IMG/VR virus record: IMGVR_UViG_3300021961_000053
Coordinates: 1 to 64,000 of that record
Direction: 5' to 3' (one strand)
Length of the DNA: 64,000 nucleotides
Origin: a virus
In this document: positions 2,333 to 49,500 of the stretch, piece after piece
Layout: each line of letters opens with the position of its first letter
Numbering within the stretch: position 1 is the stretch's first letter
Translations under genes and position numbers: made by a program
Notes under the pieces: model-generated
Told to the model about the DNA's origin: nothing
What the model saw: only the letters and a program-made list of their open reading frames with translations
The model's database searches: none

Positions 2333-2855
2333 TCTATTAGAGGGCACCTTTGCTAACAAACGTCAGGCACAAGGACACCCTACTCGTTATGCACATATTC
2401 GGGTTCAACATCGGAAAATTTCCGATTGTCGCTTTTATGGCGAACAAGCATACAACTATCTTCTAAATAGACCATATCGCCAGTTCGTAATTGAAGTGGT
2501 AGATGAGGGTAATGAAGTAGATGGAAACATTTACCGTCTCAAAAACTATGAGATTGAAGACTCTCTAAGGTTTGCGGAATGCAAAAATCTAGAACTTATC
2601 ACTGATGAGATCTTGACATACCGCAAGGGGTGTGATATTATTATGAGGCAAGTCGGTCCAGCAGCATTCAAGGGTGGCACCTCCACCTGCGAGTGCTGGG
2701 TTGATTGGCAAGGCACGAAGACCTACGTTCAAAACGAGGTTCTGCTCACAGAGACAGATTACCAAGTGGTTGATCGTGGTCTTCATGCCGAAACCCATGC
2801 TAAAGTATGGGGGTCCGACTGGGGAGCGTTCAAGTTCGTCAGAATGGGGATGTAG
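2316..2855 (+). CDS. cpeT: CpeT/CpcT-family (T-type) phycobilin lyase
   Basis: Motifs G.F.N..QA..HP..YAHI, YGEQAY....PYRQ, GCD, DRG.......VWGS..G.F.F characteristic of T-type lyases. Confidence 0.9.
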   Translation: MNQFLDLLEGTFANKRQAQGHPTRYAHIRVQHRKISDCRFYGEQAYNYLLNRPYRQFVIEVVDEGNEVDGNIYRLKNYEIEDSLRFAECKNLELITDEILTYRKGCDIIMRQVGPAAFKGGTSTCECWVDWQGTKTYVQNEVLLTETDYQVVDRGLHAETHAKVWGSDWGAFKFVRMGM

Positions 2856-2966: not shown

Positions 2967-3038
2967 GCCATTTTAGCTCAGTGGTAGAGCAACCGCCTTG
3001 TAAGCGGTAGGTCGTCAGTTCGAATCTGACATGTGGCT
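2967..3038 (+). tRNA. tRNA-Thr(UGU)
   Basis: ACCGC-CTTGTAA-GCGGT; one acceptor mismatch. Confidence 0.9.
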
Positions 3039-3140
3039 TTGGTAGTCGCTAGGCACATAGCCTAGAAAGACGCCAACCTTCCGTTAGGGTTGGAAATGTC
3101 CGAATCTAATGGTCGTAGGGAAGTCCTCTAACACTTCCCA
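3039..3140 (+). ncRNA. Three consecutive hairpins between tRNAs
   Basis: TTGG..GTC.CTAGGC/GCCTAG..GAC.CCAA; CCGTTAGG..TTGGA/TCCGA..TCTAATGG; GGGAAGT/ACTTCCC. Confidence 0.4.
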
Positions 3141-3141
3141 T

Positions 3142-3216
3142 TTCCTCTGGTAGTCTATTGATAAGGACACCCCGACAAGGGAGTTGGAAACTGGGTTTGA
3201 TTCCCAGACAGAGGAA
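3142..3216 (+). ncRNA. tRNA-like RNA with non-canonical anticodon arm
   Basis: TTCCTCTG/CAGAGGAA acceptor, U8A9, GTCT/GGAC D-stem, CTGGG-TTTGATT-CCCAG T-arm; anticodon arm only CCC-GACAA-GGG. Confidence 0.6.
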
Positions 3217-3270
3217 GATAGAGGGCAAGCCTCTGTTATATCCTTGAGGTATATTACGCTTGTCCCATCT
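3216..3270 (+). ncRNA. Long bulged hairpin RNA element
   Basis: AGAT..GGGCAAGC/GCTTGTCC.ATCT with inner GTTATATCC-TTGA-GGTATATTAC. Confidence 0.4.
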
Positions 3271-3344
3271 GGGGAATTAGCTCAGTCTGGTAGAGCGCCT
3301 GCTTTGCAAGCAGGATGTCAGCGGTTCGAGTCCGCTATTCTCCA
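3271..3344 (+). tRNA. tRNA-Ala(UGC)
   Basis: CCTGC-TTTGCAA-GCAGG; G3:U70 pair. Confidence 0.93.
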
Positions 3345-3350
3345 CCTTAT

Positions 3351-3422
3351 TCCACAATAGCTCAGCGGTAGAGCCATCGACTGTTAATCGATTGGTCCCT
3401 GGTTCGAATCCAGGTTGTGGAG
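3351..3422 (+). tRNA. tRNA-Asn(GUU)
   Basis: ATCGA-CTGTTAA-TCGAT. Confidence 0.93.
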
Positions 3423-3437
3423 TTTTTAGAGGTTAAT

Positions 3438-3551
3438 ATGAATATCCGAGGTGATTGTACTTGGTCCGAACAATTCGGATACATTTATCTGTGTGTCAAA
3501 GAGATCACTAAAATTCTTATACTTGGAGATCGCTACCGCCCTAGTGTATAA
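3438..3551 (+). CDS. Small hypothetical protein (37 aa)
   Basis: AGAGG SD, ATG...TAA; manually translated. Confidence 0.45.
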   Translation: MNIRGDCTWSEQFGYIYLCVKEITKILILGDRYRPSV

Positions 3552-3554
3552 ATA
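3547..3554 (+). promoter_or_regulatory. T4-type late promoter
   Basis: Exact TATAAATA about 40 nt upstream of the giant structural gene. Confidence 0.85.
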
Positions 3555-3595
3555 AATCCTAGGATAAAAGCTTACACCGCAGGGTCAGTATAATC

Positions 3596-6500
3596 ATGCC
3601 ATTAACACGTCTGGATAACCTTATCAGCTCCAAAACTGGTAAGTATCTTTATGTTTCTCCTGATGACTTTAACGCCACAGATTCGTTATCAAACAGAGGT
3701 AATTCACCAGTTACCCCATTTAAGAGCATCCAACGTGCGTTCTTAGAAATCGCAAGATATTCATATACCCCTGGTCCATCTAACGATAGATTTGACCAGT
3801 TCAGCATCATGCTGATGCCTGGTATTCACTATATTGATAACCGTCCTGGTCTTGTAGATACCAGTGGTATTGATGTATTTGATTTCAACCAAGCTCTGAA
3901 TGCTTGGGGCGATGATCCTATCCTTGATATCTCAAATCCAGATAACATCCTTTACAGGTTCAACAACACTGAAGGTGGTGCTATTATCCCTAGAGGTTCT
4001 TCTCTTGTAGGTTATGACCTCAGAAGAACTACTGTTCGTCCTCTATACGTTCCTGATCCTGCATCTGTAACTGTTCCACGTTCTGCAATCTTTAACGTAA
4101 CTGGTGGTTGCTACTTCTGGCAATTCACTCTAAAGGATGGACAGACCACTGCTGAATCCCCTCTCTACAACCCTGCAGCAGGCACTGGTGAAGTATACTA
4201 TGATCCTAATGATTTCACTAGAAAAACTGCTCCTAACTTCTCTCACCACAAACTAACTGTATTTGAATATGCTGATAAGGAAGAGCTGCAACTCTTCTAC
4301 AGAAAGATTGCTAAGGCATTCTCTGCATATCAACCAACCATTGATGATGTATCACCAGAAGGTATTCCTGAGTTTGATTACAACGTTCAGGAAAATAGAA
4401 TCGTTGGTCCTCTATCTGACTCTCGTGTTATTGAGTCACTTAAATTCACGGATGCGACAACAAATCCTGCAATTCCATCATCAACCACTGAGATTGAAGT
4501 AACAACTAAGGTTGATCACGGTTACTTTGCTGGTCAGTTTGTTGCTATTTCTGGAACTGAAATTGATGATGAGATCGAAGGATTCTGGGGAATTTATGAC
4601 ATCTCTGATGATCCTCGTAAATTTACCTATCGTGTTCCTTTTGTTGTATCTGGAATCGGTCAAGGTCTATCGTCTGGAATTACCGTTAGTGTAGATACCA
4701 CTCCTGCATTAGGTCAGAACGCACAAGTTCTTGCGGAAGTTGATTCTGTTGAGTCTGCGTCACCATACGTTTTCAACGTTTCAATTCGTTCTGTCTGGGG
4801 TATTTGTGGTATCTGGGCAAATGGTTTGAAAGCCACTGGATTCAAATCCATGGTTATCGCTCAATACACGGGTGTTTCGCTTCAGAGAGACGATAGAGCA
4901 TTCATTCGCTACGACGAATACGCAAACACTTGGAACCAAGCATCACTAGTTGATGCATTTGCTAGTGTTCCTTACCACGCTAAGGGCGATTCCTACTGGA
5001 AGGATGACTGGAGAAACTTCCACGTTCGTGCTTCCGATGACGCATTCATCCAGAACGTTTCTATCTTCGCGGTTGGTTTCGCTGATCACTTCCTGATGGA
5101 GTCGGGTGGTGACATGTCGATCACCAACTCTAACTCAAACTTCGGTAATACCTCACTACACGCTATTGGTTTCAAAGGATTCTCCTTCAACCAAGATAAG
5201 GCAGGTTATATTACCGATATCATTCCTCCTCAGCAAGTTGTTGAGAGTGAGACAAATAGAAAGAGAGTTCTATACTATACTATTGACGTTCAGGGAACCA
5301 TCCAGGATGGAGCAAATCGCACCAAACTATATCTTGGTGGAACAGATCTAGACAATCCACTAGATCGTCCTGCTGCTACTATTGGTGGATATAGAATTGG
5401 TGGCAAGTCTGGTGATAAACTTTATGTAAAACTGGACAAAAAGAATAACATTGATACTTTCCAAACAACATTAAGTCCAACTGGTTTTGTTAAGTATATT
5501 GCTAAGGGTTCTATTCTCAATCCAAGTAACTATACTATTAATAATGTAAATGTTGACGCTGCTAATCTAATCGAAAGCAACCGTCGCATGATTCAGGAGG
5601 AAGTCTTCGGTTATATTCTAGAGAAGTATCCAAGACTCCAGAACATTTCATATGTCAATCCATCACTTAACCCTGCTGCTGGTCGTTACCTTGATGCCAA
5701 GAATCTAATCATTGCTAACCGTCAAGAGATTGTTGATACAGCTTTTGACGAGATGGTTGAGGCATTTGGTATTGGTAACATTCAAGGTGTTGCCGATGGT
5801 AAGTGCAAGCGTGACATTGGTTTCATCGTTGATGCTATCGCAGAAGACCTCAGAGATGGTGGTAATGCTAACATCATTGCTGCAACTAGAGAGTATTTTG
5901 ATGGCAATGGAGATGCAATTTCAAACGGTCTTGTTGGAGAAGAAGTTCCATCTGTATTTGCATTTAACAGAGCAAGAGATCTCTGCAAGAAAGCAATTGC
6001 TAACCTACTAACAGTTAAAGCATCTATCTACGATCCAGAGACTGATAACCTACTATCTCCTTATGGAGTTATCTCTGGAAGCACTGGATCTGCTGCTCTA
6101 GGACTAGACAGTGAAGGTGTAACTGTAGATAAGGCAAACAGACAAGATCCTGCTGGTCGTTATAAGGATGCTCGCAACAGAATTATTGCCAACCGTGACT
6201 TTATTCTTGACGCAGCACTAGCAGAAGTTGCTGTCTATCATGACGATTTCTACTTCCCAGGAACTGCACAGACTACTGCTAAGTCTCGTTTCTACGATGG
6301 ATTCAGAATGATCCGTCGCAACAACAAAGAGATTGCTGATAGAGCCCTTGCTAAGATTGCATTTGAGCATCCTGATTTCTACTTCCCAGGAGATGCTCAG
6401 ACCACTGCTGATTCAAGATTCTATGATTCATATCGTCTGATTCAGCAAAACAAAGATGAGATTCAAGACCGTGCATTAGCACAGATTGCAATCAACCATC

Positions 6501-9500
6501 CAGATTTCTACATTCCTGGTAGTGCTCAGACAACAACACAATCAAGATTCTTTGATTCATATCGTTTGATTCAACAGAACAGAACTGACATCATCAATAC
6601 AGCATGGAACAACATGGTTGCTGTATATCCTGGTGTTGTTGGTACTGAGACCAAGTGTAAGCGTGACCTAGGATACTTTGTTGATGCTATCTCCCTTGAC
6701 ATCTTCATGGGTGGTAACAAGTATGCCCGTAAGTTTGTCTCCATGTACTTTGCTAGTGGAGCACCTATTGGTAATGGTCTAGTTGGTGAAGAGGCAGAGA
6801 GCATCCGTGCATTCCAAGAGGCAAGAGACCTCATGGGTCAGGCAGTTGCTAACCAACTAGCAGTTAAGGATCTTTCACTGACTGCAGATCCTGCTACTGG
6901 TTCTAACATTGATCCTAACTCCTGCGCTAACGTTCAGTCTGCAATTGATTCTCTTACGCTCATCGTAACTGATGTAATTGCTGCTGGTTCTCTTGCTGGT
7001 ATGGCTGCAGAAACTCCTTACTCTATTGAGGCAGGTGAGCTCAAGTGCCGTAGAGACCTTGGATTCTTCATTGATGCTGTATCCCTTGACCTCTTTATTC
7101 GTGGCAATGAGTATTCATACAGATTTGCTGCTGAATACTTTGATGTCAATGGTGCTGCAATCAGCAATGGTCTAGTTGGTGAGACTGCAGAAAGCATCAC
7201 TGCTTTCAACAAAGCAAGAGACATGATGAAACTTGCTATCACCAATTCTCTATATGAGAAGGATCTAACTCTAACAGCAGATCCTGCAACTGGTGATAAC
7301 CAAGATCAAGCATCCTGTGCTAACGTTCAGTCAGCACTTGACACTCTGACAAGCATTGTCACAACCATCGTTGCTGCTGGTAACCTATCATCTCTACCTG
7401 TTGAAATCAACAAGGGTTCTGCTCCTGCAGGTATGGAGAAGTGTGGTCGTGACATTGGATACTTCATTGATGCAATTGCTGTTGATCTCTTCACTGGTGG
7501 TAACAAGCACACCAGAACCTTCATTCAGCAATACTTTGATGGTAACACACCTATTAGCAATGGTTTAGCGGGTGAAGAAGCTGAGAGCATCACTGCTTTC
7601 AACGAAGCTTCTGCATACATGCAGCTGGCAGTTACAAACGAACTATACTACAGAGATTTAACTGTTACTGCTGATCCTCTAACTGGAGACAACCAAGATC
7701 CTAATTCCTGTGCTAACGTTCGCTCTGCTATCTCAACGCTAACAACATACGTTACCGATGCTCTGACTGCAGGCAACCTCAACACTCTACCAACTGAGAA
7801 TGCTGGATCATTCCAGACTGGAGAACTCAAGTGCCGTAGAGACCTAGGATATGTTGTTGATGCTGTAGCACAAGACCTCTGGTTTGGTGGTAACGAATAC
7901 ACCATCGCAGCAACTAAGGAATACTTCAATGGTAACTCATTGATTGCTAACGGTGTTGATAACGAGATCGCACCTTCAATCACAGCATTCAAGAGAGCTG
8001 CAGATCTAATGAATCGTGCAGTCAATAACCAATACTACTACCGTGATCTTGGTCTAACCCTAGATCAAACTGGTGATCCAGCATTCGTTGCTGACATTCA
8101 TGCTGATGCATACAACCTTGTTCTTGATAACAAGGAGTTCATTGCTGCTGAGGCATATGAGCGTATGCTTGCTGCTTACCCATCATACCAACCATCTGCT
8201 GGTAACACCAAGCAGGATTGCCTAGATGACGTTTATGACGTTCTAGAAGAGGTAATGTGGGATGTCAAGTTTGGTGGCAACTCTAAGACCTATGATGCTG
8301 CAGAAATCTATGTAACTAACATCTTCAATGGTCAGCCTATTGATACTTTCCTAGATGCTGAGCGTGATGAAGCTGCTAAGGTATTCCTTGAGGCAAAGAA
8401 CATTGCTATCCAGTGCCTCAGAAATGAGACTGTAAGCGTATCTGCTGGCAATACTCTAACTCAAGTCAAAGACCTAACAATCGTCAATGATTGGGATGAT
8501 GACTTTGCTCCACTACCTCAGTGTGGTTCTGCTGCTGGTGCTGTAGATACTCTGTTTGGTATCATTCTACAGGCAGTAGGTAATGATGGTGGTGTTGGTA
8601 ACCTCAATGGAGTTACAAGAACTGCTCCTTCCCAACCATCAACCTATACATTAGGTAATTGCTCTGACGTTCTAGCAACAATTGATACTCTCATCGGTAT
8701 CGTTTGTGATGCTCTCTATGCTGGTAGCCTTGATACACTACCACCTCTAAGCAATGGTGAGTGGGATTGTGCTAACGTTCGTTCTTCAATTGAAAACCTC
8801 TTCGACATCATCACAGATGCCATTTCTAGCGGTTCTCTTGCTGGACTACCAGTTCTTAACCGTGGAGACTTCATCGTTAATGCAGAGTCTTCTAAGTGCT
8901 TCAGAGACGTTGCTTACATCGTTGATGCTATTGTTAATGACCTCAAGTACGGTGGTAACATCAACAGCGTACAGGCAGGTGAAGCATACTATGTTGGTAC
9001 TCAACTAGATTACATCGATGGCGAGAAAGCGGAAACAATTGATGCTTGGAACTACGTCGGTCAAATGGCAATCGCAGCAATGCGTAACTTTGACTTCCTT
9101 GCATATAACTGTGCCACAACCAATTCTTCTGCTCTTGTAACTATTCCTGATGCTGCTGGAACTGGAACCAGAGATGTTCCTGCTTCTGCAATCATTAATG
9201 TTGGAGACAACAGCGGTATTATCATCGGTATGAAGGTTGAGGAGTATCCATCTGGTTCTTACACCAATGGATTACTAAATGCTGGAGCTACACCAGTTAC
9301 CACAAACATTCCAGAAGGAACATATGTTAAGAGCTTGATCGGATCTGATAGCATTGAGTTGGGAACTTATGGTTCTCGCCTTGATAGTGGTGTAAATCAA
9401 AATTGTCAGCAACCACCAAGTTCAACCGTTTCCCTTTACTTCACCTACGAACAGGGTGCATGGGCGAACACAACACCTAAGACGGTTGTTGTTGGACCAG

Positions 9501-12500
9501 AAGCATCCGATCCAGATGTTATTCAGGACACTACAACTTCACCTTCCCAGCGTGAGTGTGCTTCAACTGCTGCTGCTATTCTTCAGCTCACAGAGAACAT
9601 CACCACTATTATTAACACTGGTCTAACCAAAGTTGTTAATGGTGTCACGGTTCCTACTGTAGATCGTGTAGAACCAACGTTCAACACTGCTCTACTTGCA
9701 TCTAGAGCAACTGTATTCACAATTGATACAACTGGTTACGGTTCAACAGATGCTCATGACTTTGAGACTGGAACTCCTGTTAGACTTGTTCCACGTCCTC
9801 GTTTTAACCCAGCAACTGGACAATATGTTGATGTAGATAAGCGTGTTATTAGACTGCCTAATGGATTTGATACTAATACCACTTACTATGTGATTGCTCC
9901 TGGTAGAGCAACACAACCAGTAGATTACAGCGGATCAACTCTCTTTGATGAGACCGCAGTTACTAGATTGATGCTTGCGACTTCTAAAGAGAACGCAGCT
10001 GCTGGTATCTACATCTACGCATCTGAAACAGAATCTATTGATCCAGATATTGAGATCGATCTCTATCAGTTTGTACTTGATGACAAGTATGATCTTCACA
10101 CCTATTCTTGTGGACTAGTCAATACTGTTGTTGGTGGCATTGAAACAGATATTGCTCACATTTTTGATATACCTTCTACCGCAACAACTCCTCAGAAAGT
10201 ATTCTTTAGAGCAATTGAAGGAAGTGATCTTCCAGATCTTGCTACAAATTATGCTTCAGATCCAACCGTTGCAATCACAAGTGGTGTCAATGCTGGTAAG
10301 ATTAACCCAAGTGTTGAATTTTATGTTCGTTATCAGACCAGCAAGGTCTTCACAATTCATAAGACTCTTGCTGATGCCTTAAACGATGTAAATCCAATCA
10401 CTTTCAACAACGCTAACGGTCCATTCAGAGTATTTGCTAACAAGAAGCGCAGCCCAATGCGCTTTGATCCAGGATTTAATGGTTCTGATACCGACAACGG
10501 TAAGTGGTACTTACAGTGTCTGGATAGAGAAACTGAAGGAAACGCAGTATTCTTTAATGAAATCTTCTACAGAATCAATGAGTCTGATTATCAGAGTAAG
10601 CCTACTACAACTGATACGTGGTATGAGCGTGTTGATGACACCAGAGATGCTAATGAGAGAACCTATAAACTCCGTTATGTCATTCCTAAGTACATTGAGA
10701 ACGCAAGAGATCCTATCAATGGATTTGTTATTAAGACAAGAACTGACGATACTCGTAAGTTAGTTCCTCAGAAACTACTACTCAAGCCTGTTGCTGGTAA
10801 CGTTTATGGTGCTCGATTTGAGAACCCACAACAACCAGGAGAATTCATTGGATTTACCAAAGAACAATTTGCTGCAGATGACACCCTAAATGATCTTAAT
10901 GCATATGATCCATTTAGAAGACCTCTAACTGGAGAAGATCAAGACACAGATTACCGTGCAATTGCAAGATTCACCTCTGGAGTCGCTGCTACAATTCAAT
11001 CTGGTCGTTATGTTGAGGATGATTTAGATGCATCTATTAAATATCTAGAACTGACTGTATTTGATCATAGTATCGATACTAAGAACTTCCCTGGACTAAG
11101 AAATGAGATCCTAACAACCGTCAAGATCTCTGCTCCTCAGGGTGGTGGTTTCATTGCAAATAAGACACAAAGTATTGTTGGTAACTCCGTCTCATTTGCT
11201 GGTAACTCTTCAGGTACTGCTTACATTCACGGATACTTTAATGTTGGTGGTGATCACTACCTAATCATCAAGGGTATCAGTGGTGCCAAGGGAACTGCTT
11301 CGCTAGAGTATAGCGAGTTCCAAGGCACAAGATTCACTCAGGGTGCTGTCTTTGCTGATATGCTGGATGACCAGGATATGGGCAAATCGCTACCTCTGAA
11401 GACCCATATCAGAAAAAATTTCCCAGAGTATTTTTACAAGCAAAACGGCGCTAACGTTTATACTATCACTCCTGGTGATCGTATTCAAGACGACGCTGGT
11501 ATTGAATACTATGTTTATAGTGTAGAAGATGCTGGTGTCATTGAAGATACTTTCTATATCTTCGATAGCGAAGAACTACAGAAGCGTATTCCAGGTCAGC
11601 AAGATGGTATCTACTATCTAACAGCTCTCCGTGGTAATATCTCTCCATATCCAACTGGTGCTGGTGCTGGTGGAAACTTCCGTAAGTTCAAGTTCTCTCA
11701 ACCAGTTGGTAAGATCTATCCTCTAAACTATAGAAACGATCCTCTCTGGTTCCAGAAGTCTGGTACAACCAACGAAGAGAAGAACTACTATTCACAGTTG
11801 ATTGATCCACCTCAGGCATTCTCTGCTGCTGATAACTATATCCACGGTAAAGTCACTGTCAACGATACCAAGAACTCTGTAACCAAGGAACTTGTTATCG
11901 ATCTTCTCAAGCAACCTGCGTTTGTCGAGAACACCTATACTAGTGATAATGAGATTCAGGCACAATTAGGTAATGCAACTTCTGGATCAGAAGATCGCCG
12001 CATTCCTATTGCTGGTGATAGCACAGTTCTTGCCGATCAGCGTTACTACGTTGAACTCCGCAGACCATCTATTGCCCGTGCTGGTAACCACACGTTTGAA
12101 TACCTAGGTTTCGGTCCTGGTAACTACTCAACAGGTCTTCCTGCCCGTCAGGAGATCGTTCTAGAACCAGAACAAGACTTCTACGCACAAGCTAAGAAGC
12201 AAGATGCTGGTATCGTATTCTACACTGGTATCAACTCTCAGGGTGACCTCTACATTGGTAACAGAAGAATCAACGCTATCACTGGTGAAGAAGACTTCAT
12301 CGATAGAGCAGTTCTTGCCGATGATGGAGATGCTGATGACGTTATCGGACAACTCGTTACTACATTCGACACACCTGTAACGTTCAACCAGAACATTACA
12401 ATCGTTGGTGGTCCAGATGGCGAACTTGTTAATAATATCAACTCTCCAATTCTGATTAATGTCCCAGACAATCAGTTAAGTAATCTTGGAGCACCTCTTG

Positions 12501-15500
12501 TTGTATATTCACTAGTAAGTTCAACAGATCCTATTACTGGATATCCTCAAGATACCACTTTAGATAGAAATAACTTCTTCCCAAATACATCTGGTGATAT
12601 CAGACTTGGTAAGAACAGAGTTGATGCCGCAATCTTTGGATTCAATCCAAGAGGAGAAGGTCAGAATTATAAGATTCAAACTCATGCTCCTGGTGGAATT
12701 GCGTCAAACATTTCTCCAAATCAAGATACTCTGATTTCTCAGGGTGGATCTAGAATTAATGCAAGTCAGTTCATCACATATGGTGGCACTGTTCTTCCTT
12801 CCACTGGAGATATGGCACTCAAGGGCGGTGCAGTTAATAAGAATGGCTCTCTTGGTTGGATCTTTGCTAACATTTACACAACAATTCCTAACAACGTAAT
12901 TTCTTCCCTGGAAGTTATTGTTGATCAGAGTGTTAATGTTGCATCATTCACGTTTATTGATAGCAACAGTAATCCAGTTCCTGTTGGATCCCTTAACATC
13001 AAGTCTGGTTCTGAAATTAGACTACAGAACATCAATTATAGCGGCGTTCTGAATGGAACATGGCCAGTTCTTTCTACTGTAGATTATCCATTCAACCCAC
13101 TCGATAACGTTGTATATTTCCAAGTTACTCCAAGAACTGGAACTCCACTTGGTGCATTTGATGAAACCTGGAGTAGTGGAATTATCAATAATCCTACTAA
13201 CCCATCTCCAAATGCTATTGTTTCCTTCTCCGTATCAAACTGGAAAGAGTTTGGTGTTCTGGGTGCTGAAGCACTTAGAACCGAGACTGAAACCATTGGT
13301 GATTACAAGCTCGGCATTAACACCATCAATAGAGCAACACATAATGCATATAAGGATGCATTTGTTGAAGTTGCAAATACTGATCCTCGTGCTAACTTGG
13401 ACGTTGTTGGTAATGCATACATCAGTGGTCGTAAGACAACTGATTGGCTTGCTCATGATGAGTATGCAGATCGTGAAAAGAATGCAGTATCGGATGCATT
13501 TGTTGTTGGTGGAGACAGTGCAAACATTGATGAGTATGCAACCCTTCGTGTTTCTACAGAAGAGATTGCAATTACCGAACCTGGCAGAGGAAATAATGCT
13601 GGCAAGGTTGGAATCAATGTTACTGATGCAGAACTAGATAGAGCACTAGTTGTTAAGGGCAACGCTAGATTCACCGAAGATGTACGCTTTGAGCGTGACA
13701 TCGAGATCCATGGTAATGGTACTCTAACTGAGGTAAGAACTGATACCACAACTGGTACATTCAACTTCATCACCGATACCAACTTTACTGGTACTCTTAA
13801 TATTGCTAACTCTGCTAGCGTACTTAACTTCGTTAATACCGCTACCACGATCGAGATTGGCAATGATGCTACAACAAATTCATTCTACTTTGGTAATGAT
13901 GTAGCAGGAGATCAGTTCTTCTACTTCGGTAGCAATGCTGACCATAGCAACTTCTTTATTGGCAATACACCAGACAGCGCAACTGTTGCTGCTAATGGAT
14001 CTATTCCAGTAACTGGTACTGGAATCAGTAGGGTAATTATTGGTGGTGCATTTGGTAACAGCAACCAAGATCAGTCCTATACAAGAATTGGATCCCAGAT
14101 TCTTAGAATTGATGGTGATGCTTGGTTAGGTTTCCGTCGTCAAGGTGGAACTGCTAGAATGAGATCACAGGCATCTGTGATTGATTTCTTCTCCAACTCT
14201 GGTGGTCCTTCGACAATCAACTTTGCTCTAAATGCATCTGAGATTAATATTGCTGGACAGGGTGGTAAGACAACTATCAATAACCAGTTAGAGGTTATTG
14301 CTTCTGCCAAGTTTAATTCAAATATCCTTCTTTGTGGTGGTCTTTCTTCCTTCTCCTTCTCTGGAAACAGAGCACAGATGGGATCTGTCATCTCAACACA
14401 TGATGATGGAGTTAATCCAGATGGAACGTTCATCAAAAACGTTGATATCCTGAATGTACTTGTTCTAGATTCACTAGCAGATGGATATAATGCTGTTGAT
14501 ACCGCTGGTTCTGGAACATGGGGTGGAGCATCTCACCAAGAAGCAGAAACATTTGATGGTGCTGCTGAACCAGTCGCAATTCCAGCTCTGAGTGGAGACG
14601 AGTATTACCTACCAATTAAATATTCTCCAAACAAATCAAACGGAGATCCATATCTAACCACTGGTGATTACATCATTGTTAATAGTGCAATTGTTGGATC
14701 TACAAATCACCCAGAGATTGTTCAGATTGTTGAAGTTGTAAGATCTGTTGCTCCATACTACCTAAAAGTTAAGCGTCGTCCATTTGGTGCATTTGGTGGT
14801 GTTCTTTCAAATCATGCAGATACAACTGCAATCTACAAGGTTAACGTACAGTTTGATGCTACCTGGATCGAACAACCAGTTGATGGCGCTGGCGCACAAG
14901 ATAACTTCTATCTTGCTGAGTTTGGTGGCGATCTCACAGTTAATGATTATATTCTTCTCAGCAGAGATGATGCTACTGGAACACCAGAATATGTAAAAGT
15001 TGTAACTCCTCTATCACAAGAAGTTCAGAAATTTAGAATTGCTGATGGTACTGACTGTGATAATACTGATGGAGATGTATTTGTTGTTGATTCTAAGACT
15101 GGTGACACATATATTGGTGGATCTGTTACTATCAATTCTTCCATTCTTCAAAATGGTGGTTGCTTCCTGACATCTTCTCTGGTAACTGGTGATTTAGTAC
15201 CAGAATCTGAGATTAATTTAACCTATAACATTACAAATATTAGCGATGAAGATATTGCTAATGTTGCTCTTGGTGACACTGTTAAGTTAAGAACTGGTAC
15301 TGCTTCTTCTGAATTCTTCTATCCTTGGTCTCAAGTTGTTGAGATTGAGAATACGGGAGGCGATCAGAACAGTGTCAAGTTGTCTGTAGCAGCTGTGAAT
15401 TTTGCCACAGAAGAAAATCTACAGTTCGAGTTTGGCAAGAATGAGGTATTTGCAATTGATAACGGACATCAGCAATCAACATTACATTTTGACACTTGCT

Positions 15501-17038
15501 CTGGAACACTTGAAATTGGTAATCAATATAGAAGATTTGAAATTGAAAGAATTTTACCAGACACCGAAACTGTAGCTGAAACAGTTGCAAGATATGATGG
15601 CGATGTCTTCAAAACAATCAGAGTATATGGGTATCAGCAAGATCCAAAATCTATTCAAGCAGATGGACCAAAAACTACTTTAAGTTCTGGTGCATCAACA
15701 GGATTAATTCCTAATTCTGTTTATCTAACTTGTGCCTCTATTGGAACTGGAGATGGTGCTTTTGCTGTTGGTGACCTGATTATGGTTGGTGACACGGCAG
15801 ATATTGATTCCAAGGGAACTGATGGAAATCAGTGGGAGATAATGAAGATTGCTTCTATTGACGCAGTTAATAACATATTGAGATGTCTTCCAGGACAAGA
15901 AGGAACAACAGCAAGAGCTCTTACTGATTATCCTGCAATTACAACAACAGTAATCAGACTTCTTAAGCATCCAGAGACTTCACTAATCTATGATATTCAA
16001 CAGAGAACGAGAGCAAGCGTTGGTTTTGTTTCTCTAATTCTTGAGAAAGGATATATTTCTCAAACAATCATGGATTATGCTCAGTATTTCAGATTCTATG
16101 ATACTACTGGAGTTTTGGATGATGAGTGGTTCTATGTTCCTACTTGCCTAAGAGGTAAGTATCATGAGACCACAATGAATGAGCAAGTTTATGCTGGTCA
16201 GTTTGGTGAAAGATCTCAGAGAATTGGTAATATTGTTATTAACAATGATCTTGAGCTGATTGGTGGTCAAATTCTCATGTATGATTCCACGAGAAAGACC
16301 AAGATTCTAAACTTCCTCAATGATGGCGGACACTCTGATCACCAAGGAGAACTATACTTCGATGCTAAGGTAACAGGAAGAGGAACAATTACAATTTATG
16401 GATTGGGATGTCCAGAGGAGACCAATTCACTCACATGTGATCCAACCTTTGCTGTAAATCAGGACGGTGATGTAACAGCGTTGAGAACATTCTCTATCAC
16501 TGGTATTGCTTCCACAAATCCACCAACATCACCAATATTGACTGTCAAGAACCTTGGCGTTCAGGGTGGATCTGAATTTACAGTAAATCATGATTGTTCT
16601 ATTGACTCCTTCGGATACGATAAGTTCTATACCAGAACTGGTGGTAGACACACAAGATACCTAGCATCTGGTACTGACGCTGAAAATCTATATCTGAAAC
16701 CAAATATTAATTACTTTGTAAATGTAACTGATGGAGATAACTTCGTTGTTTATCTACCAGAGGCTCCAATTTCTGGAGATACTGTTACTATTATTGATGT
16801 TGGTGGAAATCTAACTTACAACACTTCGTTGGTTGTTAGAGCACAGGGAACTGGAGTTAAAGTACAGGGAGATAGCACAGGAACAACCCTTGGTGGTCTT
16901 GCTTCTGCATATCCATCAGGTGAACTTGTTGTCCAAACAGCACATGCCGCATTCACACTAATCTATCTTGGTGGTACTGACACTACTGGAGCAATTGTTT
17001 CTTCTAGTGTCAATGGATGGTGGCTCAAGGAGGTCTGA
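3596..17038 (+). CDS. Giant virion structural protein (4480 aa; tail/baseplate-associated) containing 7 phycobiliprotein-like helical domains
   Basis: Uninterrupted ORF under a late promoter; cyanomyovirus-type N-terminus MPLTRLDNLISSKTG; fibre-like C-terminus; repeated KCxRD[IL]G..DA...DL..GGN motifs. Confidence 0.85.
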   Translation: MPLTRLDNLISSKTGKYLYVSPDDFNATDSLSNRGNSPVTPFKSIQRAFLEIARYSYTPGPSNDRFDQFSIMLMPGIHYIDNRPGLVDTSGIDVFDFNQALNAWGDDPILDISNPDNILYRFNNTEGGAIIPRGSSLVGYDLRRTTVRPLYVPDPASVTVPRSAIFNVTGGCYFWQFTLKDGQTTAESPLYNPAAGTGEVYYDPNDFTRKTAPNFSHHKLTVFEYADKEELQLFYRKIAKAFSAYQPTIDDVSPEGIPEFDYNVQENRIVGPLSDSRVIESLKFTDATTNPAIPSSTTEIEVTTKVDHGYFAGQFVAISGTEIDDEIEGFWGIYDISDDPRKFTYRVPFVVSGIGQGLSSGITVSVDTTPALGQNAQVLAEVDSVESASPYVFNVSIRSVWGICGIWANGLKATGFKSMVIAQYTGVSLQRDDRAFIRYDEYANTWNQASLVDAFASVPYHAKGDSYWKDDWRNFHVRASDDAFIQNVSIFAVGFADHFLMESGGDMSITNSNSNFGNTSLHAIGFKGFSFNQDKAGYITDIIPPQQVVESETNRKRVLYYTIDVQGTIQDGANRTKLYLGGTDLDNPLDRPAATIGGYRIGGKSGDKLYVKLDKKNNIDTFQTTLSPTGFVKYIAKGSILNPSNYTINNVNVDAANLIESNRRMIQEEVFGYILEKYPRLQNISYVNPSLNPAAGRYLDAKNLIIANRQEIVDTAFDEMVEAFGIGNIQGVADGKCKRDIGFIVDAIAEDLRDGGNANIIAATREYFDGNGDAISNGLVGEEVPSVFAFNRARDLCKKAIANLLTVKASIYDPETDNLLSPYGVISGSTGSAALGLDSEGVTVDKANRQDPAGRYKDARNRIIANRDFILDAALAEVAVYHDDFYFPGTAQTTAKSRFYDGFRMIRRNNKEIADRALAKIAFEHPDFYFPGDAQTTADSRFYDSYRLIQQNKDEIQDRALAQIAINHPDFYIPGSAQTTTQSRFFDSYRLIQQNRTDIINTAWNNMVAVYPGVVGTETKCKRDLGYFVDAISLDIFMGGNKYARKFVSMYFASGAPIGNGLVGEEAESIRAFQEARDLMGQAVANQLAVKDLSLTADPATGSNIDPNSCANVQSAIDSLTLIVTDVIAAGSLAGMAAETPYSIEAGELKCRRDLGFFIDAVSLDLFIRGNEYSYRFAAEYFDVNGAAISNGLVGETAESITAFNKARDMMKLAITNSLYEKDLTLTADPATGDNQDQASCANVQSALDTLTSIVTTIVAAGNLSSLPVEINKGSAPAGMEKCGRDIGYFIDAIAVDLFTGGNKHTRTFIQQYFDGNTPISNGLAGEEAESITAFNEASAYMQLAVTNELYYRDLTVTADPLTGDNQDPNSCANVRSAISTLTTYVTDALTAGNLNTLPTENAGSFQTGELKCRRDLGYVVDAVAQDLWFGGNEYTIAATKEYFNGNSLIANGVDNEIAPSITAFKRAADLMNRAVNNQYYYRDLGLTLDQTGDPAFVADIHADAYNLVLDNKEFIAAEAYERMLAAYPSYQPSAGNTKQDCLDDVYDVLEEVMWDVKFGGNSKTYDAAEIYVTNIFNGQPIDTFLDAERDEAAKVFLEAKNIAIQCLRNETVSVSAGNTLTQVKDLTIVNDWDDDFAPLPQCGSAAGAVDTLFGIILQAVGNDGGVGNLNGVTRTAPSQPSTYTLGNCSDVLATIDTLIGIVCDALYAGSLDTLPPLSNGEWDCANVRSSIENLFDIITDAISSGSLAGLPVLNRGDFIVNAESSKCFRDVAYIVDAIVNDLKYGGNINSVQAGEAYYVGTQLDYIDGEKAETIDAWNYVGQMAIAAMRNFDFLAYNCATTNSSALVTIPDAAGTGTRDVPASAIINVGDNSGIIIGMKVEEYPSGSYTNGLLNAGATPVTTNIPEGTYVKSLIGSDSIELGTYGSRLDSGVNQNCQQPPSSTVSLYFTYEQGAWANTTPKTVVVGPEASDPDVIQDTTTSPSQRECASTAAAILQLTENITTIINTGLTKVVNGVTVPTVDRVEPTFNTALLASRATVFTIDTTGYGSTDAHDFETGTPVRLVPRPRFNPATGQYVDVDKRVIRLPNGFDTNTTYYVIAPGRATQPVDYSGSTLFDETAVTRLMLATSKENAAAGIYIYASETESIDPDIEIDLYQFVLDDKYDLHTYSCGLVNTVVGGIETDIAHIFDIPSTATTPQKVFFRAIEGSDLPDLATNYASDPTVAITSGVNAGKINPSVEFYVRYQTSKVFTIHKTLADALNDVNPITFNNANGPFRVFANKKRSPMRFDPGFNGSDTDNGKWYLQCLDRETEGNAVFFNEIFYRINESDYQSKPTTTDTWYERVDDTRDANERTYKLRYVIPKYIENARDPINGFVIKTRTDDTRKLVPQKLLLKPVAGNVYGARFENPQQPGEFIGFTKEQFAADDTLNDLNAYDPFRRPLTGEDQDTDYRAIARFTSGVAATIQSGRYVEDDLDASIKYLELTVFDHSIDTKNFPGLRNEILTTVKISAPQGGGFIANKTQSIVGNSVSFAGNSSGTAYIHGYFNVGGDHYLIIKGISGAKGTASLEYSEFQGTRFTQGAVFADMLDDQDMGKSLPLKTHIRKNFPEYFYKQNGANVYTITPGDRIQDDAGIEYYVYSVEDAGVIEDTFYIFDSEELQKRIPGQQDGIYYLTALRGNISPYPTGAGAGGNFRKFKFSQPVGKIYPLNYRNDPLWFQKSGTTNEEKNYYSQLIDPPQAFSAADNYIHGKVTVNDTKNSVTKELVIDLLKQPAFVENTYTSDNEIQAQLGNATSGSEDRRIPIAGDSTVLADQRYYVELRRPSIARAGNHTFEYLGFGPGNYSTGLPARQEIVLEPEQDFYAQAKKQDAGIVFYTGINSQGDLYIGNRRINAITGEEDFIDRAVLADDGDADDVIGQLVTTFDTPVTFNQNITIVGGPDGELVNNINSPILINVPDNQLSNLGAPLVVYSLVSSTDPITGYPQDTTLDRNNFFPNTSGDIRLGKNRVDAAIFGFNPRGEGQNYKIQTHAPGGIASNISPNQDTLISQGGSRINASQFITYGGTVLPSTGDMALKGGAVNKNGSLGWIFANIYTTIPNNVISSLEVIVDQSVNVASFTFIDSNSNPVPVGSLNIKSGSEIRLQNINYSGVLNGTWPVLSTVDYPFNPLDNVVYFQVTPRTGTPLGAFDETWSSGIINNPTNPSPNAIVSFSVSNWKEFGVLGAEALRTETETIGDYKLGINTINRATHNAYKDAFVEVANTDPRANLDVVGNAYISGRKTTDWLAHDEYADREKNAVSDAFVVGGDSANIDEYATLRVSTEEIAITEPGRGNNAGKVGINVTDAELDRALVVKGNARFTEDVRFERDIEIHGNGTLTEVRTDTTTGTFNFITDTNFTGTLNIANSASVLNFVNTATTIEIGNDATTNSFYFGNDVAGDQFFYFGSNADHSNFFIGNTPDSATVAANGSIPVTGTGISRVIIGGAFGNSNQDQSYTRIGSQILRIDGDAWLGFRRQGGTARMRSQASVIDFFSNSGGPSTINFALNASEINIAGQGGKTTINNQLEVIASAKFNSNILLCGGLSSFSFSGNRAQMGSVISTHDDGVNPDGTFIKNVDILNVLVLDSLADGYNAVDTAGSGTWGGASHQEAETFDGAAEPVAIPALSGDEYYLPIKYSPNKSNGDPYLTTGDYIIVNSAIVGSTNHPEIVQIVEVVRSVAPYYLKVKRRPFGAFGGVLSNHADTTAIYKVNVQFDATWIEQPVDGAGAQDNFYLAEFGGDLTVNDYILLSRDDATGTPEYVKVVTPLSQEVQKFRIADGTDCDNTDGDVFVVDSKTGDTYIGGSVTINSSILQNGGCFLTSSLVTGDLVPESEINLTYNITNISDEDIANVALGDTVKLRTGTASSEFFYPWSQVVEIENTGGDQNSVKLSVAAVNFATEENLQFEFGKNEVFAIDNGHQQSTLHFDTCSGTLEIGNQYRRFEIERILPDTETVAETVARYDGDVFKTIRVYGYQQDPKSIQADGPKTTLSSGASTGLIPNSVYLTCASIGTGDGAFAVGDLIMVGDTADIDSKGTDGNQWEIMKIASIDAVNNILRCLPGQEGTTARALTDYPAITTTVIRLLKHPETSLIYDIQQRTRASVGFVSLILEKGYISQTIMDYAQYFRFYDTTGVLDDEWFYVPTCLRGKYHETTMNEQVYAGQFGERSQRIGNIVINNDLELIGGQILMYDSTRKTKILNFLNDGGHSDHQGELYFDAKVTGRGTITIYGLGCPEETNSLTCDPTFAVNQDGDVTALRTFSITGIASTNPPTSPILTVKNLGVQGGSEFTVNHDCSIDSFGYDKFYTRTGGRHTRYLASGTDAENLYLKPNINYFVNVTDGDNFVVYLPEAPISGDTVTIIDVGGNLTYNTSLVVRAQGTGVKVQGDSTGTTLGGLASAYPSGELVVQTAHAAFTLIYLGGTDTTGAIVSSSVNGWWLKEV
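6239..6625 (+). repeat. Three tandem 129-bp (43-aa) repeats within the giant gene
   Basis: H[DP]DFY[FI]PG.AQTT..SRF.D..R.I..N starting at 6239, 6368 and 6497. Confidence 0.85.
6653..8040 (+). repeat. Four ~390-bp (~130-aa) imperfect repeats
   Basis: KC.RD motifs at 6653, 7043, 7439, 7829; shared NGLVGE.AESI.AF and DL..TADP.TG.N.D..SCANV.SA. Confidence 0.85.
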
Positions 17039-46530: not shown

Positions 46531-49500
46531 ATGGCAATTAAGACCAAAAAAATCTCTGCTCTTATTGAGTCTCAACTTCCTAATTTTATAGTTGATGAGT
46601 ACCCATTGTTCTCCAAGTTTTTGGAGAAGTATTATGAGGCACAGGAAAATAGTGGGCAACCTCTAGATCTTGCTAATAATATCTTAGAGTACGCAGATAT
46701 TAATTATTATGAGTCTAATTTGCTCAAGGAAAATACTCTATTGAGTAGCACTATCTCAGCATCAGATTCAACTATTGTGTTGGATGCTGGAGATTCATTC
46801 CCAGATAAAAATGGATACGTCAGAATTAATGACGAGATTATTTTTTATGGCAGGAGAAATGGAAACATTCTCACAAACTGCTCCAGAGGCGTCAGTGGCA
46901 ACACCACCCTAGGAGATTTATACGAACAGTCTTCATTCGTTACTACAGAGGCAGCAGGACACGTCTCAGGGTCTGTTGTATATAACGTAAGTAATCTTTT
47001 CCTGTATGCTCTTATCAAGAGCTTTGAATCTCAATACCTGGCATCATTTCCAGAGAAATATCTCAAGGGTGCGGTAGACAAAAGAACCCTTATCAAGAAT
47101 ATAAAGCAGTTTTACAAAACAAAAGGAACCACTGCTTCTATTAGATTCATTTTCAACTCTATTGTCGCAAAAGACACTAGAGATGTCCCAGAAACATATA
47201 ACCCAACAGATTACACATACAAGGCATCTAATGCCGATTGGATTAATGTATTTGCTATAAAAGCAAAGGTTGTATCTGGAGATCCAAATGATCTAATTGG
47301 AAAGGTCATTGTTCAAGAAGAAACCGATGAATATGGATATGCATCAGCAACTGTTGATAATGTTTATCCAGATGGTACTTCCGATGGAGAACAAATTTGG
47401 AACATTGTTTTAGCACCAGAAACAGTAAATGGAACTTTTGCAATTTCCACTAAGACTCGCTTAGAAAAAGAACTACAAACAACCGATGGTGTTGGAAAGA
47501 GAGTTAATGTTTTCTCTACAGTAGGATGGGGAAAGACTGGGGAAATTCTAATCGGTGATGAAATAATTAAATTTGAAGAAAAAAATGTAACTCAGTTTGT
47601 AATCAAGAAAAGAGGAAATATAACCTACACTCATAGTGTTGGTGCTTCTGTATATAAACCAGTTACTATTTCTGGATCCAATGTCACTATGCTGACATTT
47701 GGTGTTGTCTATAATTTGAAGCCAAATAATTTACAACCATATTCCTTTACTGGAGATAAAGTTCAGATTTCAAATCCTGGATTTGAAACCTCAGATCCAA
47801 AGATTGTATTAAGTGGAACAAATCAAGTACGCTGGTTGTTAAATCGCAACCTTCCTGTAAGCATTACATCAATTCCATTATTACAAACTTCTCTTGATGA
47901 TGTCTCTACTGATGTATCTGCTATTTTTAGCGATGATCAATACTATTACATCACAACCTCTGGTTTTCCATCTTATAACATTCTCAATGGTTCTACAGTA
48001 ACTCAGACTGTTCAAGATCAGAAGATCTTACGTATTATAAGAAAGCGAGCAACTAGAACTACAGAAAAATATAATACTCCAAAATCTGAAGTTGGAATTC
48101 TACTGAACGGAGCTAGAGTTTATTGTCATAAAGATTCTGAAAGCATTCGATATGGAAAACTAGAGAGTATTGCAGTTAATACTCAAGGAAGTGGTTATGC
48201 TAAACCACCTTTTGTATTACTCGACGGTGTTCCAAATAAAGCAAGAGCAATTCTTTCTGGATCTGTTGTTGAAAGATATGTTGTTGATACAAAAGATACG
48301 TTTAGAAGAACACCAGTTGTAGAAGTAACATCTGGCAGAGGAGCAGTTGTTCGTGCAATTGTTACTGGAGATAAGATTACATCTTTGGTTATTGATAACC
48401 CTGGCGAATACTATTCGTCCCCACCACTTATTAGAATTACAGACAAGAATGGAAAGGGAAGATTCGCGGATTATACATCTGTTGTAAACACAGATGGAAA
48501 AATTACTGGGTTTATCAAAAATGATGAAGGAACTTTCTACAATCAGAATACTGTAGTAGTTGATGTTATTCCTGTCGGTAAAGGTGCAACAGCAACTCCA
48601 TTTTTGAAAGAATGGAATTTCAATAGATTTGAAAAGTTAAAAACCAATCTTGATTCCGAGTATGGATATGTTTTCAAGAATTATAATAACGTTTTAGAAT
48701 ATGGTTATGGACACGTAGCAAATCCAAAAGCACTCAGAGTTGCACTCAATGATAACTTGGGTCCTTCTGGGATCGAGCCATCCACAAAAGTGCATTCCCC
48801 AATTATCGGATTTGCTTATGATGGAAATCCAATTTATGGTCCTTTTGGTCATCAGAATCCTTTAGATCCACAGTCACCTATTGCTAGAATGACTTCTAGT
48901 TATTCTAGAAAAGGAACTAGGGCAGATGGTCCTTCTATGACGACATATCCATTGGGATCATTCACAAATGATTATGTTTATACTCATAAATCTGGGTCTC
49001 TAGATGAAAATAATGGAAGATTCTGTATTACTCCAGATTATCCAGAAGGGGTTTATGCTTATTTTATTACAATCGATAGTAATCAAGTACCACAATATCC
49101 ATATATTTTAGGGGAAAATTTCTATTCACTTCCAGTTGAAAGTAATTATGCTTCTGACATCAATCAAAACGATATTCCAAAAAATTCAAAAAGGTTATTC
49201 GTTCCTGGTATGCCACAGAATGGAAGTGGTGTTGTTGCAGAAATTGCAGAAGTAAAATCTGGAACTGTCGATGCAATCAGTATTGATAGATCATCCGATA
49301 ACTTTTCTGTTAATTCTAAACTGTATTTTGACAATAGAGGGACGGATGGATCTGATGCCGAAGCACTGGTAGAATCGGTAAAAGGAAAAGTAGTATCTTA
49401 CCTCGATAGTTATGAAAACAAAGTAGTAAAACTAACTACGATTCAAAATGCATATCTCTTTACAGATGATACATTAAGACAACCATCGTCTGGAGCATCT

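What the first reader, a model, noticed from the sequence alone, without database searches (positions are those of the whole stretch)
5555..9620. Seven helical domains are nested like Russian dolls, not arranged in tandem
Seen: with a = A/B helices, b = KCxRD segment and c = Cys helix, the order along the protein is a1 a2 b a3 a4 a5 a6 b c b c b c b a7 b c c c b [beta insert] c. This is 7 of each and parses as balanced brackets: I = 5555/8897/9557, II = 5693/5804/8768, III = 6167/7832/8660, IV = 6296/7442/7709, V = 6425/7046/7316, VI = 6554/6656/6923, VII = 8105/8219/8522. It also explains the two odd repeat arrays: the 129-bp repeats are outgoing N-halves and the 390-bp repeats are returning C-halves. 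Inference: repeated insertion of a domain into loops of its own copies builds a hairpin-like extended arm whose length can be tuned by copy number.
Basis: partly seen in the sequence, partly recalled or inferred. Interest (0 to 1): 0.82.

Follow-up and report, generated by a model that had tools for sequence, protein, structure and literature searches.

The report
Nested phycobiliprotein-like domains in cyanophage fibre
A giant tail-fibre gene of a marine Synechococcus phage holds seven copies of a phycocyanin-like helical domain that appear to be inserted one inside another rather than strung head to tail, a rare recursive way of building a protein.

Summary

ORF 3596..17038 (4480 aa) is the giant "short tail fibre" of a T4-like Synechococcus phage. 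Their order parses as balanced brackets of depth 6.

The unit a+b+c is one domain:
- It occurs contiguously in other cyanophage virion proteins.
- Its profile matches phycocyanin chains in the PDB, best E=1.5e-5.

Four tests support nesting:
- 96 of 121 homologues parse as balanced, with depths up to 10.
- The 7-, 6- and 5-domain relatives lose one 43-aa a-unit together with one 130-aa bc-unit.
- Similarity among a's mirrors similarity among b's only under nest pairing.
- Column pairs that covary in contiguous domains also covary in split domains only under nest pairing: 13 of 20, against 2-3 of 20 in controls.

The closest precedent is the 6-level recursive Si3 insertion of cyanobacterial RpoC2 (PMC13114784). 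I class this as a new variant of a known kind.

The parts
3596..17038 (+). Giant tail-fibre ORF (4480 aa) that holds the nest at residues about 650-2011
   Evidence: PHROG 4527/529 tail fibre; S-RSM4 'putative short tail fibre' 77.6% nt identity
5543..5635 (+). Domain I, segment a (outermost)
   Evidence: HMM hit. Its similarity profile matches b1 best, r=0.85.
5681..5767 (+). Domain II, segment a
5801..6022 (+). Domain II, segment b (KCKRD), contiguous with a2
6155..6250 (+). Domain III, segment a (first of four 43-aa units)
6284..6379 (+). Domain IV, segment a
6413..6508 (+). Domain V, segment a
6539..6631 (+). Domain VI, segment a (innermost, contiguous with b6)
6653..6877 (+). Domain VI, segment b
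6920..7003 (+). Domain VI, segment c (Cys helix)
7043..7270 (+). Domain V, segment b
   Evidence: The RGNEYSYRF signature is kept in the innermost domain of 6-domain relatives.
7313..7396 (+). Domain V, segment c
7439..7666 (+). Domain IV, segment b
7706..7789 (+). Domain IV, segment c
7829..8053 (+). Domain III, segment b
8093..8188 (+). Domain VII, segment a (side branch in the b|c loop of III)
   Evidence: a7-b7 profile r=0.88
8216..8437 (+). Domain VII, segment b (reads C-L-D-D, not CxRD)
8522..8602 (+). Domain VII, segment c
8657..8740 (+). Domain III, segment c (assigned by bracket logic only)
8765..8848 (+). Domain II, segment c (assigned by bracket logic only)
8894..9094 (+). Domain I, segment b
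9095..9553 (+). Non-helical-looking insert of about 152 aa in the b|c loop of domain I
   Evidence: sequence only; fold not tested
9554..9628 (+). Domain I, segment c (closes the nest)
   Evidence: b1-c1 profile r=0.68
52645..53985 (+). Second, smaller nest in another giant ORF (46531..57048): a b (a b c) c
   Evidence: PF00502 23.3 bits, above the cut-off of 22.2

Best explanation
Residues about 650-2011 of the fibre protein are seven copies of one phycobiliprotein-like (globin-type) helical domain. Each domain has three pieces:
- a aligns to phycocyanin residues about 34-62.
- b starts at the Cys-x-Arg-Asp site and runs through the next helices.
- c is the last helix, starting with a second conserved Cys.

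The copies are not head to tail. A whole copy sits in the a|b loop or the b|c loop of another copy. The resulting tree is I > II > III > IV > V > VI, with VII as a second insert in III and a foreign insert in I.

In space (inferred), each a helix folds back onto the b and c pieces that return later in the chain. Neighbouring domains are then joined by two short linkers, and both chain ends leave from the same end. This would give a hairpin-like, doubly connected string of domains projecting from the fibre.

Its length changes among relatives at the tip of the hairpin. The change comes either by loss or gain of the contiguous innermost domain, or by matched in-register loss or gain of one a-unit and one bc-unit.

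Shown: segment inventory, bracket order, domain homology, coupled copy number, and a-b pairing by similarity and covariation.
Inferred: the 3D packing, the rod shape, and the b-c pairings of II and III.
For: 1. Inventory and order: 7 a, 7 b and 7 c parse as balanced brackets of depth 6.

2. a+b+c is one unit.
- tblastn of contiguous domain VI hits 307 phage records, all cyanophages. In 294 of them one place covers at least 80% of the query.
- Many records hold only one place, lying in other giant virion proteins.
- A profile of 15 contiguous copies (A2) finds only phycobiliproteins among the 60 PDB sequences listed, best C-phycocyanin alpha at E=1.5e-5.
- Profile positions 15-72 align to CpcA 38-104, with the conserved Cys-x-Arg-Asp aligned.
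- PF00502 is above its cut-off in homologues: P0009 57 bits, P0003 51 bits.

3. Grammar in relatives.
- 96 of 121 homologues parse outright; 14 are one edit away, 8 two edits, 3 more. Depths are 4, 5, 6 and 10.
- Of 55 further nest-type representatives of 50%-identity clusters, 19 are balanced, 28 fit as truncated pieces, 8 are one edit away and 0 are otherwise.

4. Coupled copy number: an alignment of 7-, 6- and 5-domain relatives shows gaps of one or two 43-aa a-units together with one or two 130-aa bc-units, while I, II, III, IV and VII stay orthologous.

5. Paralogue Mantel test on split domains only: nest pairing gives r=0.71-0.94, order-preserving pairing gives -0.50 to -0.03.
- P0052: n=10, p=0.0024.
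- P0094: n=8, p=0.0004.
- P0108: n=6, p=0.023.
- P0010: n=4, p=0.043.
- P0001: n=4, p=0.085.
- P0103: n=5, p=0.15 (all).

6. Covariation transfer.
- Of the 20 a-b column pairs that covary most in 438 contiguous domains, 13 are in the top 2% in 623 split domains under nest pairing (median rank 24 of 2376).
- Controls give 3, 3 and 2 of 20 under shift-by-one, order-preserving and deranged pairing (median ranks 1137, 1130 and 1442).
- The top pairs use a-columns 3, 6, 7, 10 and 13, which is the spacing of one helix face.

7. Linkers are short: a to a 9-10 aa, c to b 13-14 aa, c to c 8-18 aa. Only a fold-back pairing is geometrically easy (inference).

8. A second ORF of the same window shows a b (a b c) c.
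Against:
- The window's own protein gave no Pfam hit as a whole, and domain VI alone scored 14.4 bits, below the PF00502 cut-off of 22.2.
- 25 of 121 homologues do not parse as detected. Most look like split b hits, truncated proteins or an undetected last c, but that was not proven case by case.
- Covariation support for the b-c and a-c pairings is weak: 3 against 1 of 20, and 6 against 4 of 20.
- The similarity-profile test did not resolve domains II and III.
- The Mantel test in the window's own protein has only 4 split domains (p=0.085).
- Covariation and Mantel signals could partly reflect shared descent of a and b of one domain rather than physical contact. Either still implies that they belong together.
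- A distant family (25-32% identity) does not follow this grammar as detected.
Confidence: 0.84

Rival explanations
1. Two independent tandem arrays. The 43-aa a-repeats form their own helical rod, and the 130-aa bc-repeats are truncated domains that fold without a. The equal counts would be coincidence or a looser length-matching constraint.
For: Along the chain the a's and the bc's do form two separate runs. Token shuffles with equal counts are balanced in 0.2-11% of trials, so order alone is not overwhelming once counts are equal.
Against: - Counts match across n=2, 3, 4, 6 and 10.
- a is homologous to an integral part of the phycobiliprotein fold, and a-b is contiguous in single-copy domains.
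- The a-b column couplings of contiguous domains reappear in split domains only under nest pairing.
Confidence: 0.05
2. The pairing is real but between chains. In the fibre oligomer, the a-array of one subunit completes the bc-array of a neighbouring subunit (domain swapping), so the arm is an intertwined multimer rather than a single-chain hairpin.
For: Sequence tests show which a belongs with which b, but they cannot tell whether the partner is in the same chain. Phage fibres are usually oligomers (general knowledge, not tested here).
Against: a6-b6, a7-b7 and a2-b2 are joined by only 6-9 residues and so must pair within the chain. With VI fixed in cis and 9-14-residue linkers on both strands, the neighbouring pairs are most simply in cis too (inference).
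Confidence: 0.1
3. Artefact: the bracket pattern is an accident of motif calling in a low-complexity, repetitive protein.
For: The c HMM is short (28 columns), and some c hits are weak (1e-7 to 1e-8 for c1 and c7).
Against: HMM hits are highly significant for a and b (1e-12 to 1e-36). The pattern is conserved across 48 seven-domain homologues. Only 1 of 200000 letter shuffles parses.
Confidence: 0.01

Closest known systems
Si3 insertion of cyanobacterial RNA polymerase beta' (RpoC2): recursively nested hybrid-motif domains
   Same: Copies of one small domain family serve both as host and as insert, giving a multi-level nest. [quoted passage not shown]
   Different: - Si3 is a beta-rich hybrid-motif fold in a cellular enzyme; here the domain is an all-helical phycobiliprotein-like domain in a phage fibre.
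- Two insertion sites are used here (a|b and b|c loops).
- Parse depth reaches 10 in relatives.
- Copy number varies among close relatives.
- Si3 has structures; this nest has none.
Phycobiliproteins (phycocyanin, phycoerythrin and allophycocyanin subunits; Pfam PF00502)
   Same: - A profile of the contiguous domain hits only phycobiliproteins among the 60 PDB sequences listed.
- Cys-x-Arg-Asp aligns with the bilin-binding site of CpcA. The numbering Cys84/Arg86/Asp87 is recalled.
- The c-segment Cys aligns weakly with the second Cys region of CpcB, residues 139-164.
- PF00502 is above its cut-off in homologues.
   Different: - Alignments start at about residue 34-38, so the N-terminal helices that pair alpha with beta subunits are not matched.
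- The domains are parts of 2500-7900-aa virion proteins, not 160-180-aa antenna subunits.
- They are split and nested.
- Bilin binding is untested.
Ordinary tandem-repeat fibre and adhesin proteins (beads on a string)
   Same: Many copies of one domain make a long virion appendage, and copy number differs among relatives. Some distant relatives of this very domain do look simply tandem: P0149, P0167 and P0189 are mostly ab-c units in tandem.
   Different: Here the pieces of one domain are up to about 1100 residues apart, and the order is a^n(bc)^n rather than (abc)^n.

Membership tests
Phycobiliprotein family (Pfam PF00502) | Sequence score above the curated Pfam cut-off (22.2 bits) | tested here: inconclusive
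   - Window protein as a whole: no hit at E<=0.1.
- Domain VI alone: 14.4 bits, below the cut-off.
- Close homologues P0009 (57 bits) and P0003 (51.2 bits): above it.
- The window's second ORF piece: 23.3 bits, above it.
- A2 profile against the PDB: phycocyanin at E=1.5e-5.
Phycobiliprotein family (Pfam PF00502) | Conserved Cys-x-Arg-Asp at the start of the chromophore helix | tested here: met
   Present in 6 of 7 b segments; VII has C-L-D-D. It aligns to the CpcA site.
Phycobiliprotein family (Pfam PF00502) | N-terminal helix pair used for alpha-beta pairing (feature recalled) | tested here: not met
   PDB alignments begin at chain residue 34-41 and profile position 11-20. Pfam matches begin at profile position 18-35. 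Nothing upstream of a matches.
Phycobiliprotein family (Pfam PF00502) | Covalently bound bilin | not testable with these tools
   Only context is available: a CpeT-family gene (PF06206, 1.6e-38) lies at 2316-2855, upstream of the fibre gene.
Recursive (nested) homotypic domain insertion, as in RpoC2 Si3 | Segments of one domain are interrupted by whole further domains, and the order parses as brackets | tested here: met
   96 of 121 homologues parse.
Recursive (nested) homotypic domain insertion, as in RpoC2 Si3 | Host and insert belong to the same domain family | tested here: met
   The same three HMMs detect all seven copies.
Recursive (nested) homotypic domain insertion, as in RpoC2 Si3 | The separated segments belong to one domain | tested here: met
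   - Mantel test: nest r=0.71-0.94 against -0.50 to -0.03 for order-preserving pairing.
- Covariation transfer: 13 of 20 against 2-3 of 20.
- These results hold for a-b. Support for b-c is weak.
Recursive (nested) homotypic domain insertion, as in RpoC2 Si3 | 3D structure shows the split segments packed as one fold | not testable with these tools
Simple tandem-repeat array | Whole units repeated head to tail | tested here: not met
   The order is a a b a a a a b c b c b c b a b c c c b c. TRF finds no array.

The most novel reading that the evidence does not exclude
Cyanophage fibre and baseplate proteins have evolved a protein architecture that obeys a bracket (context-free) grammar. A phycobiliprotein-like globin domain is recursively inserted into its own two surface loops, to depth 6 here and 10 in relatives.

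This would be the deepest homotypic nest reported and the first in an all-helical fold. The balance of the two arrays is kept during evolution by matched recombination in two arrays hundreds of residues apart.

The resulting doubly linked rod would carry up to 14 conserved bilin-type cysteines, next to a phage CpeT lyase gene. The arm might therefore be a pigment-bearing appendage of the virion.
Probability: 0.3. Interest if true: 0.88.

Novelty: new variant of a known kind. Interest (0 to 1): 0.74.

Why it matters
- Rarity: recursive self-insertion of a domain is rare. A 2026 survey singles out one 6-level case, cyanobacterial RpoC2 Si3 (PMC13114784, passages read).
- Second system: here is a second, unrelated and deeper system, with hundreds of natural variants whose copy number differs. 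It can be used to ask how discontinuous domains fold, how two distant repeat arrays stay matched in evolution, and whether doubly linked domain strings make stiffer rods than beads on a string.
- Annotation: whole-protein Pfam scanning missed the domains entirely, so split copies of known folds in giant phage proteins are easily overlooked.
- Cyanophage biology: a host-antenna-like fold sits in fibre and baseplate proteins, beside a bilin-lyase gene.
- Literature: searches for the phycobiliprotein link in phage virion proteins found nothing relevant.

Tried and rejected
- Tandem Repeats Finder on 3000-12000: no arrays. The copies are too diverged at DNA level.
- Pfam on the whole protein: nothing. 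phmmer of domain VI against PDB sequences: nothing at E<=10. Only a profile of 15 contiguous copies reached phycobiliproteins.
- Similarity-profile concordance: worked for domains I and VII. IV-VI are interchangeable, and II and III were unresolved.
- Best-match mapping of domains of other families onto the window's seven: gave no clean orthology and was dropped.
- Covariation transfer for b-c and a-c: only weak differences.
- The bracket grammar does not fit the distant family as detected (25-32% identity, 78 of 145 representatives).
  - That family has 108-aa 'ab' units and Cys-less c-like helices.
  - A second HMM for those helices showed c-runs followed by ab-runs of similar length (r=0.73; 21 of 52 equal). 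This is slightly better than c-runs compared with the preceding ab-runs (r=0.59; 12 of 46 equal).
  - I leave this unexplained.
- The search for related loci with a single domain gave only 6 close loci.
- Literature searches found no paper on this domain in phage virion proteins. PMC2984593 was searched for passages only and mentions cpeT as a photosynthesis gene.
- Chance and artefact were rejected.

Full report
**What is there.** The finding lies inside one ORF, 3596..17038 on the + strand, 4480 aa.
- PHROG families call it a tail-fibre protein (phrog_4527 and phrog_529).
- The nearest named relative of the stretch is the 'putative short tail fibre' of Synechococcus phage S-RSM4: 77.6% nt identity over 91% of the query. 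All 21 megablast hits are Synechococcus phages.

**Checking the observation.**
- A regex finds CxRD at residues 737, 1021, 1151, 1283, 1413 and 1768, which are nt 5804, 6656, 7046, 7442, 7832 and 8897.
- Cys helices stand at residues 1110, 1241, 1372, 1689 and 1725.
The seventh b reads C-L-D-D, and the c's at 8522 and 9557 are more diverged.
- HMMs built from these copies and run over all six frames of the window find 7 a, 7 b and 7 c in this ORF. Elsewhere there are only two of each, in a second giant ORF.
- The order is a a b a a a a b c b c b c b a b c c c b c.
- One of 200000 letter shuffles parses. With 'bc' kept as one token, 54 of 20000 shuffles parse.
- The 129-nt and roughly 390-nt periods are real. 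The copies are only 50-73% identical in DNA and 31-67% (a) or 49-60% (bc) identical in protein. This explains why TRF found nothing.

**What the unit is.** The three pieces together are one domain.
- tblastn of the one fully contiguous copy (VI, window 6524-7012) finds 307 phage records, all cyanophages. In 294 of them one place covers at least 80% of the query.
- In many records there is a single place, inside other giant virion proteins such as Syn19_088, S-RIM2 and S-SSM5. HMM scans of those loci give a-b-c in a row.
- A profile of 15 contiguous copies given by reference (A2) was searched against all PDB sequences. It returned 135 sequences at E<=10.
  - The 60 listed are all phycobiliproteins or engineered derivatives.
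  - The best is C-phycocyanin alpha at E=1.5e-5.
  - Profile positions 15-72 align to CpcA 38-104, and the Cys-x-Arg-Asp of segment b aligns to that of CpcA.
  - A weak second stretch aligns the c-segment Cys region to CpcB 139-164.
  - One chain (8u0f_C) matches over profile 12-151 and chain residues 35-176.
- Pfam PF00502 is above its cut-off in close homologues: P0009 57 bits, P0003 51.2 bits. In the window's own protein it is not found as a whole (no hit), and domain VI alone scores 14.4 bits.
- So a corresponds to the helix region at residues about 34-62 of phycobiliproteins, b to the chromophore helix and what follows, and c to the last helix. The helix letters are recalled, not tested.
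- The two insertion points are the a|b loop and the b|c loop.

Test 1, grammar in relatives.
- After two HMM iterations and merging of split hits, 96 of 121 homologues parse as balanced. The depths are 4, 5, 6 and 10. Examples are a4(bc)4 a6(bc)6 in P0094, and fifteen roughly 2920-aa proteins with ten a's in a row.
- Of the 25 that fail, 14 are one edit from balanced, 8 two edits and 3 more. They look like b hits split by inserts, truncated proteins or an undetected last c.
- Among 145 further representatives of 50%-identity clusters, 55 are of this type: 19 balanced, 28 fit as truncated pieces, 8 are one edit away and none is otherwise.

Test 2, coupled copy number.
- In the S-RSM4-like family the central block is 4 a + 3 bc + b, 3 a + 2 bc + b or 2 a + 1 bc + b.
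- Domains I, II, III, IV and VII stay orthologous.
- The alignment shows how the variants differ.
  - P0021 lacks one contiguous stretch equal to a6-b6-c6.
  - P0014 and P0025 lack one a-unit through an a5/a6 hybrid and, separately, one bc-unit through a b6/b5 hybrid.
  - The 5-domain forms lack two of each.

Test 3, paralogue Mantel test, restricted to split domains.
- The similarity matrix of the a's agrees with that of their b's under nest pairing (r=0.71-0.94).
- It does not agree under order-preserving pairing (r=-0.50 to -0.03).
- Permutation p values are 0.0024 (P0052, n=10), 0.0004 (P0094, n=8), 0.023 (P0108, n=6), 0.043 (P0010, n=4), 0.085 (the window's protein, n=4) and 0.15 (P0103, n=5).

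Test 4, covariation transfer.
- MI-APC (mutual information with average-product correction) was computed on 438 contiguous a-b pairs. This gave the 20 most strongly coupled column pairs.
- In 623 split domains, 13 of these lie in the top 2% under nest pairing (median rank 24 of 2376).
- Controls give 3, 3 and 2 of 20 under shift-by-one, order-preserving and deranged pairing (median ranks 1137, 1130 and 1442).
- The top pairs use a-columns 3, 6, 7, 10 and 13, which is one face of a helix.
- The same test is weak for b-c (3 against 1) and for a-c (6 against 4).

In addition, a1 and b1 are 1070 residues apart, yet both resemble the same subset of contiguous reference domains (r=0.85). Linkers are short: 9-10, 13-14 and 8-18 residues.

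**Limits.**
- Nothing here shows the 3D packing.
- The c assignments of II and III follow from the bracket rule only (one search did not resolve them).
- Mantel and covariation signals may partly reflect common descent of the pieces of one domain rather than contact.
- Pairing between chains of an oligomer is not excluded, except for the copies whose a and b are contiguous.

**How it probably works (inferred).**
- Each inserted copy sits in a surface loop of its host, so every domain boundary is crossed twice by the chain.
- The whole 1360-residue block enters and leaves at domain I. This gives a doubly linked row of six domains, with VII branching from III and a 152-aa foreign insert on I.
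- Length is changed at the tip.

**Comparison with what is known.**
- A 2026 survey of domain insertions (PMC13114784; abstract and passages read) states that most insertions are single-level. It highlights a 6-level recursive insertion of hybrid-motif domains in cyanobacterial RpoC2 Si3.
- That is the same principle in another fold and another kind of protein, so this is a new variant rather than a new category.
- I found no paper linking phycobiliprotein-like domains to phage virion proteins. Supplements were closed.

**Earlier notes of this scan.**
- It had noted a cpeT gene upstream, which I confirmed as PF06206 at 1.6e-38.
- It had noted a small nest in the gp7-like ORF, which I confirmed as a b (a b c) c.

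**Verdict.**
- The nested reading is supported at about 0.84.
- The arm shape is not tested.
- Interest is fairly high: a natural, variable, deep recursive architecture in an unexpected fold.

Noticed in passing
window 2316-2855 (+): A CpeT/CpcT-family bilin-lyase gene (PF06206, E=1.6e-38) lies about 740 nt upstream of the fibre gene. The fibre's domains keep both phycobiliprotein-type cysteines.
   Followed up: partly
window 46531-57048 (+), nest at 52645-53985: A second giant ORF (3505 aa) holds two more copies of the domain, ordered a b (a b c) c. The insertion is in the b|c loop. PF00502 scores 23.3 bits on this piece.
   Followed up: partly
proteins P0130-P0266, e.g. P0136, P0164, P0149: A distant family (25-32% identity, 78 of 145 representatives) has 108-aa a-b units in long runs (up to about 30 b hits) and Cys-less c-like helices. 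Some members are simple tandem (abc)n. In others, runs of c-like helices precede runs of ab units of similar length (P0164: c3 ab3 c4 ab4 c5 ab8). This does not fit the grammar and may be a permuted nest.
   Followed up: partly
homologues in alignment A1 and (e.g. P0120 1171-1446, P0083 1691-1905): The b|c loop and a loop inside b also take foreign inserts of 40-440 residues in relatives (for example b split at 1257/1701 in P0073). These loops therefore seem to be general insertion hot spots.
   Followed up: no
L007 (P-HM2 'gp7'), L008 (S-RIM2), L009-L016: Single contiguous copies of the domain sit in other 4000-7000-aa virion proteins of many cyanomyoviruses: 307 records, including 10 Prochlorococcus phages, whose hosts lack phycobilisomes according to PMC2984593.
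   Followed up: partly
window 3596-5500 (residues 1-630): The N-terminal 630 residues match phrog_529 (tail fibre protein) end to end and are nearly invariant among 38 homologues. The nest starts right after this conserved module.
   Followed up: no
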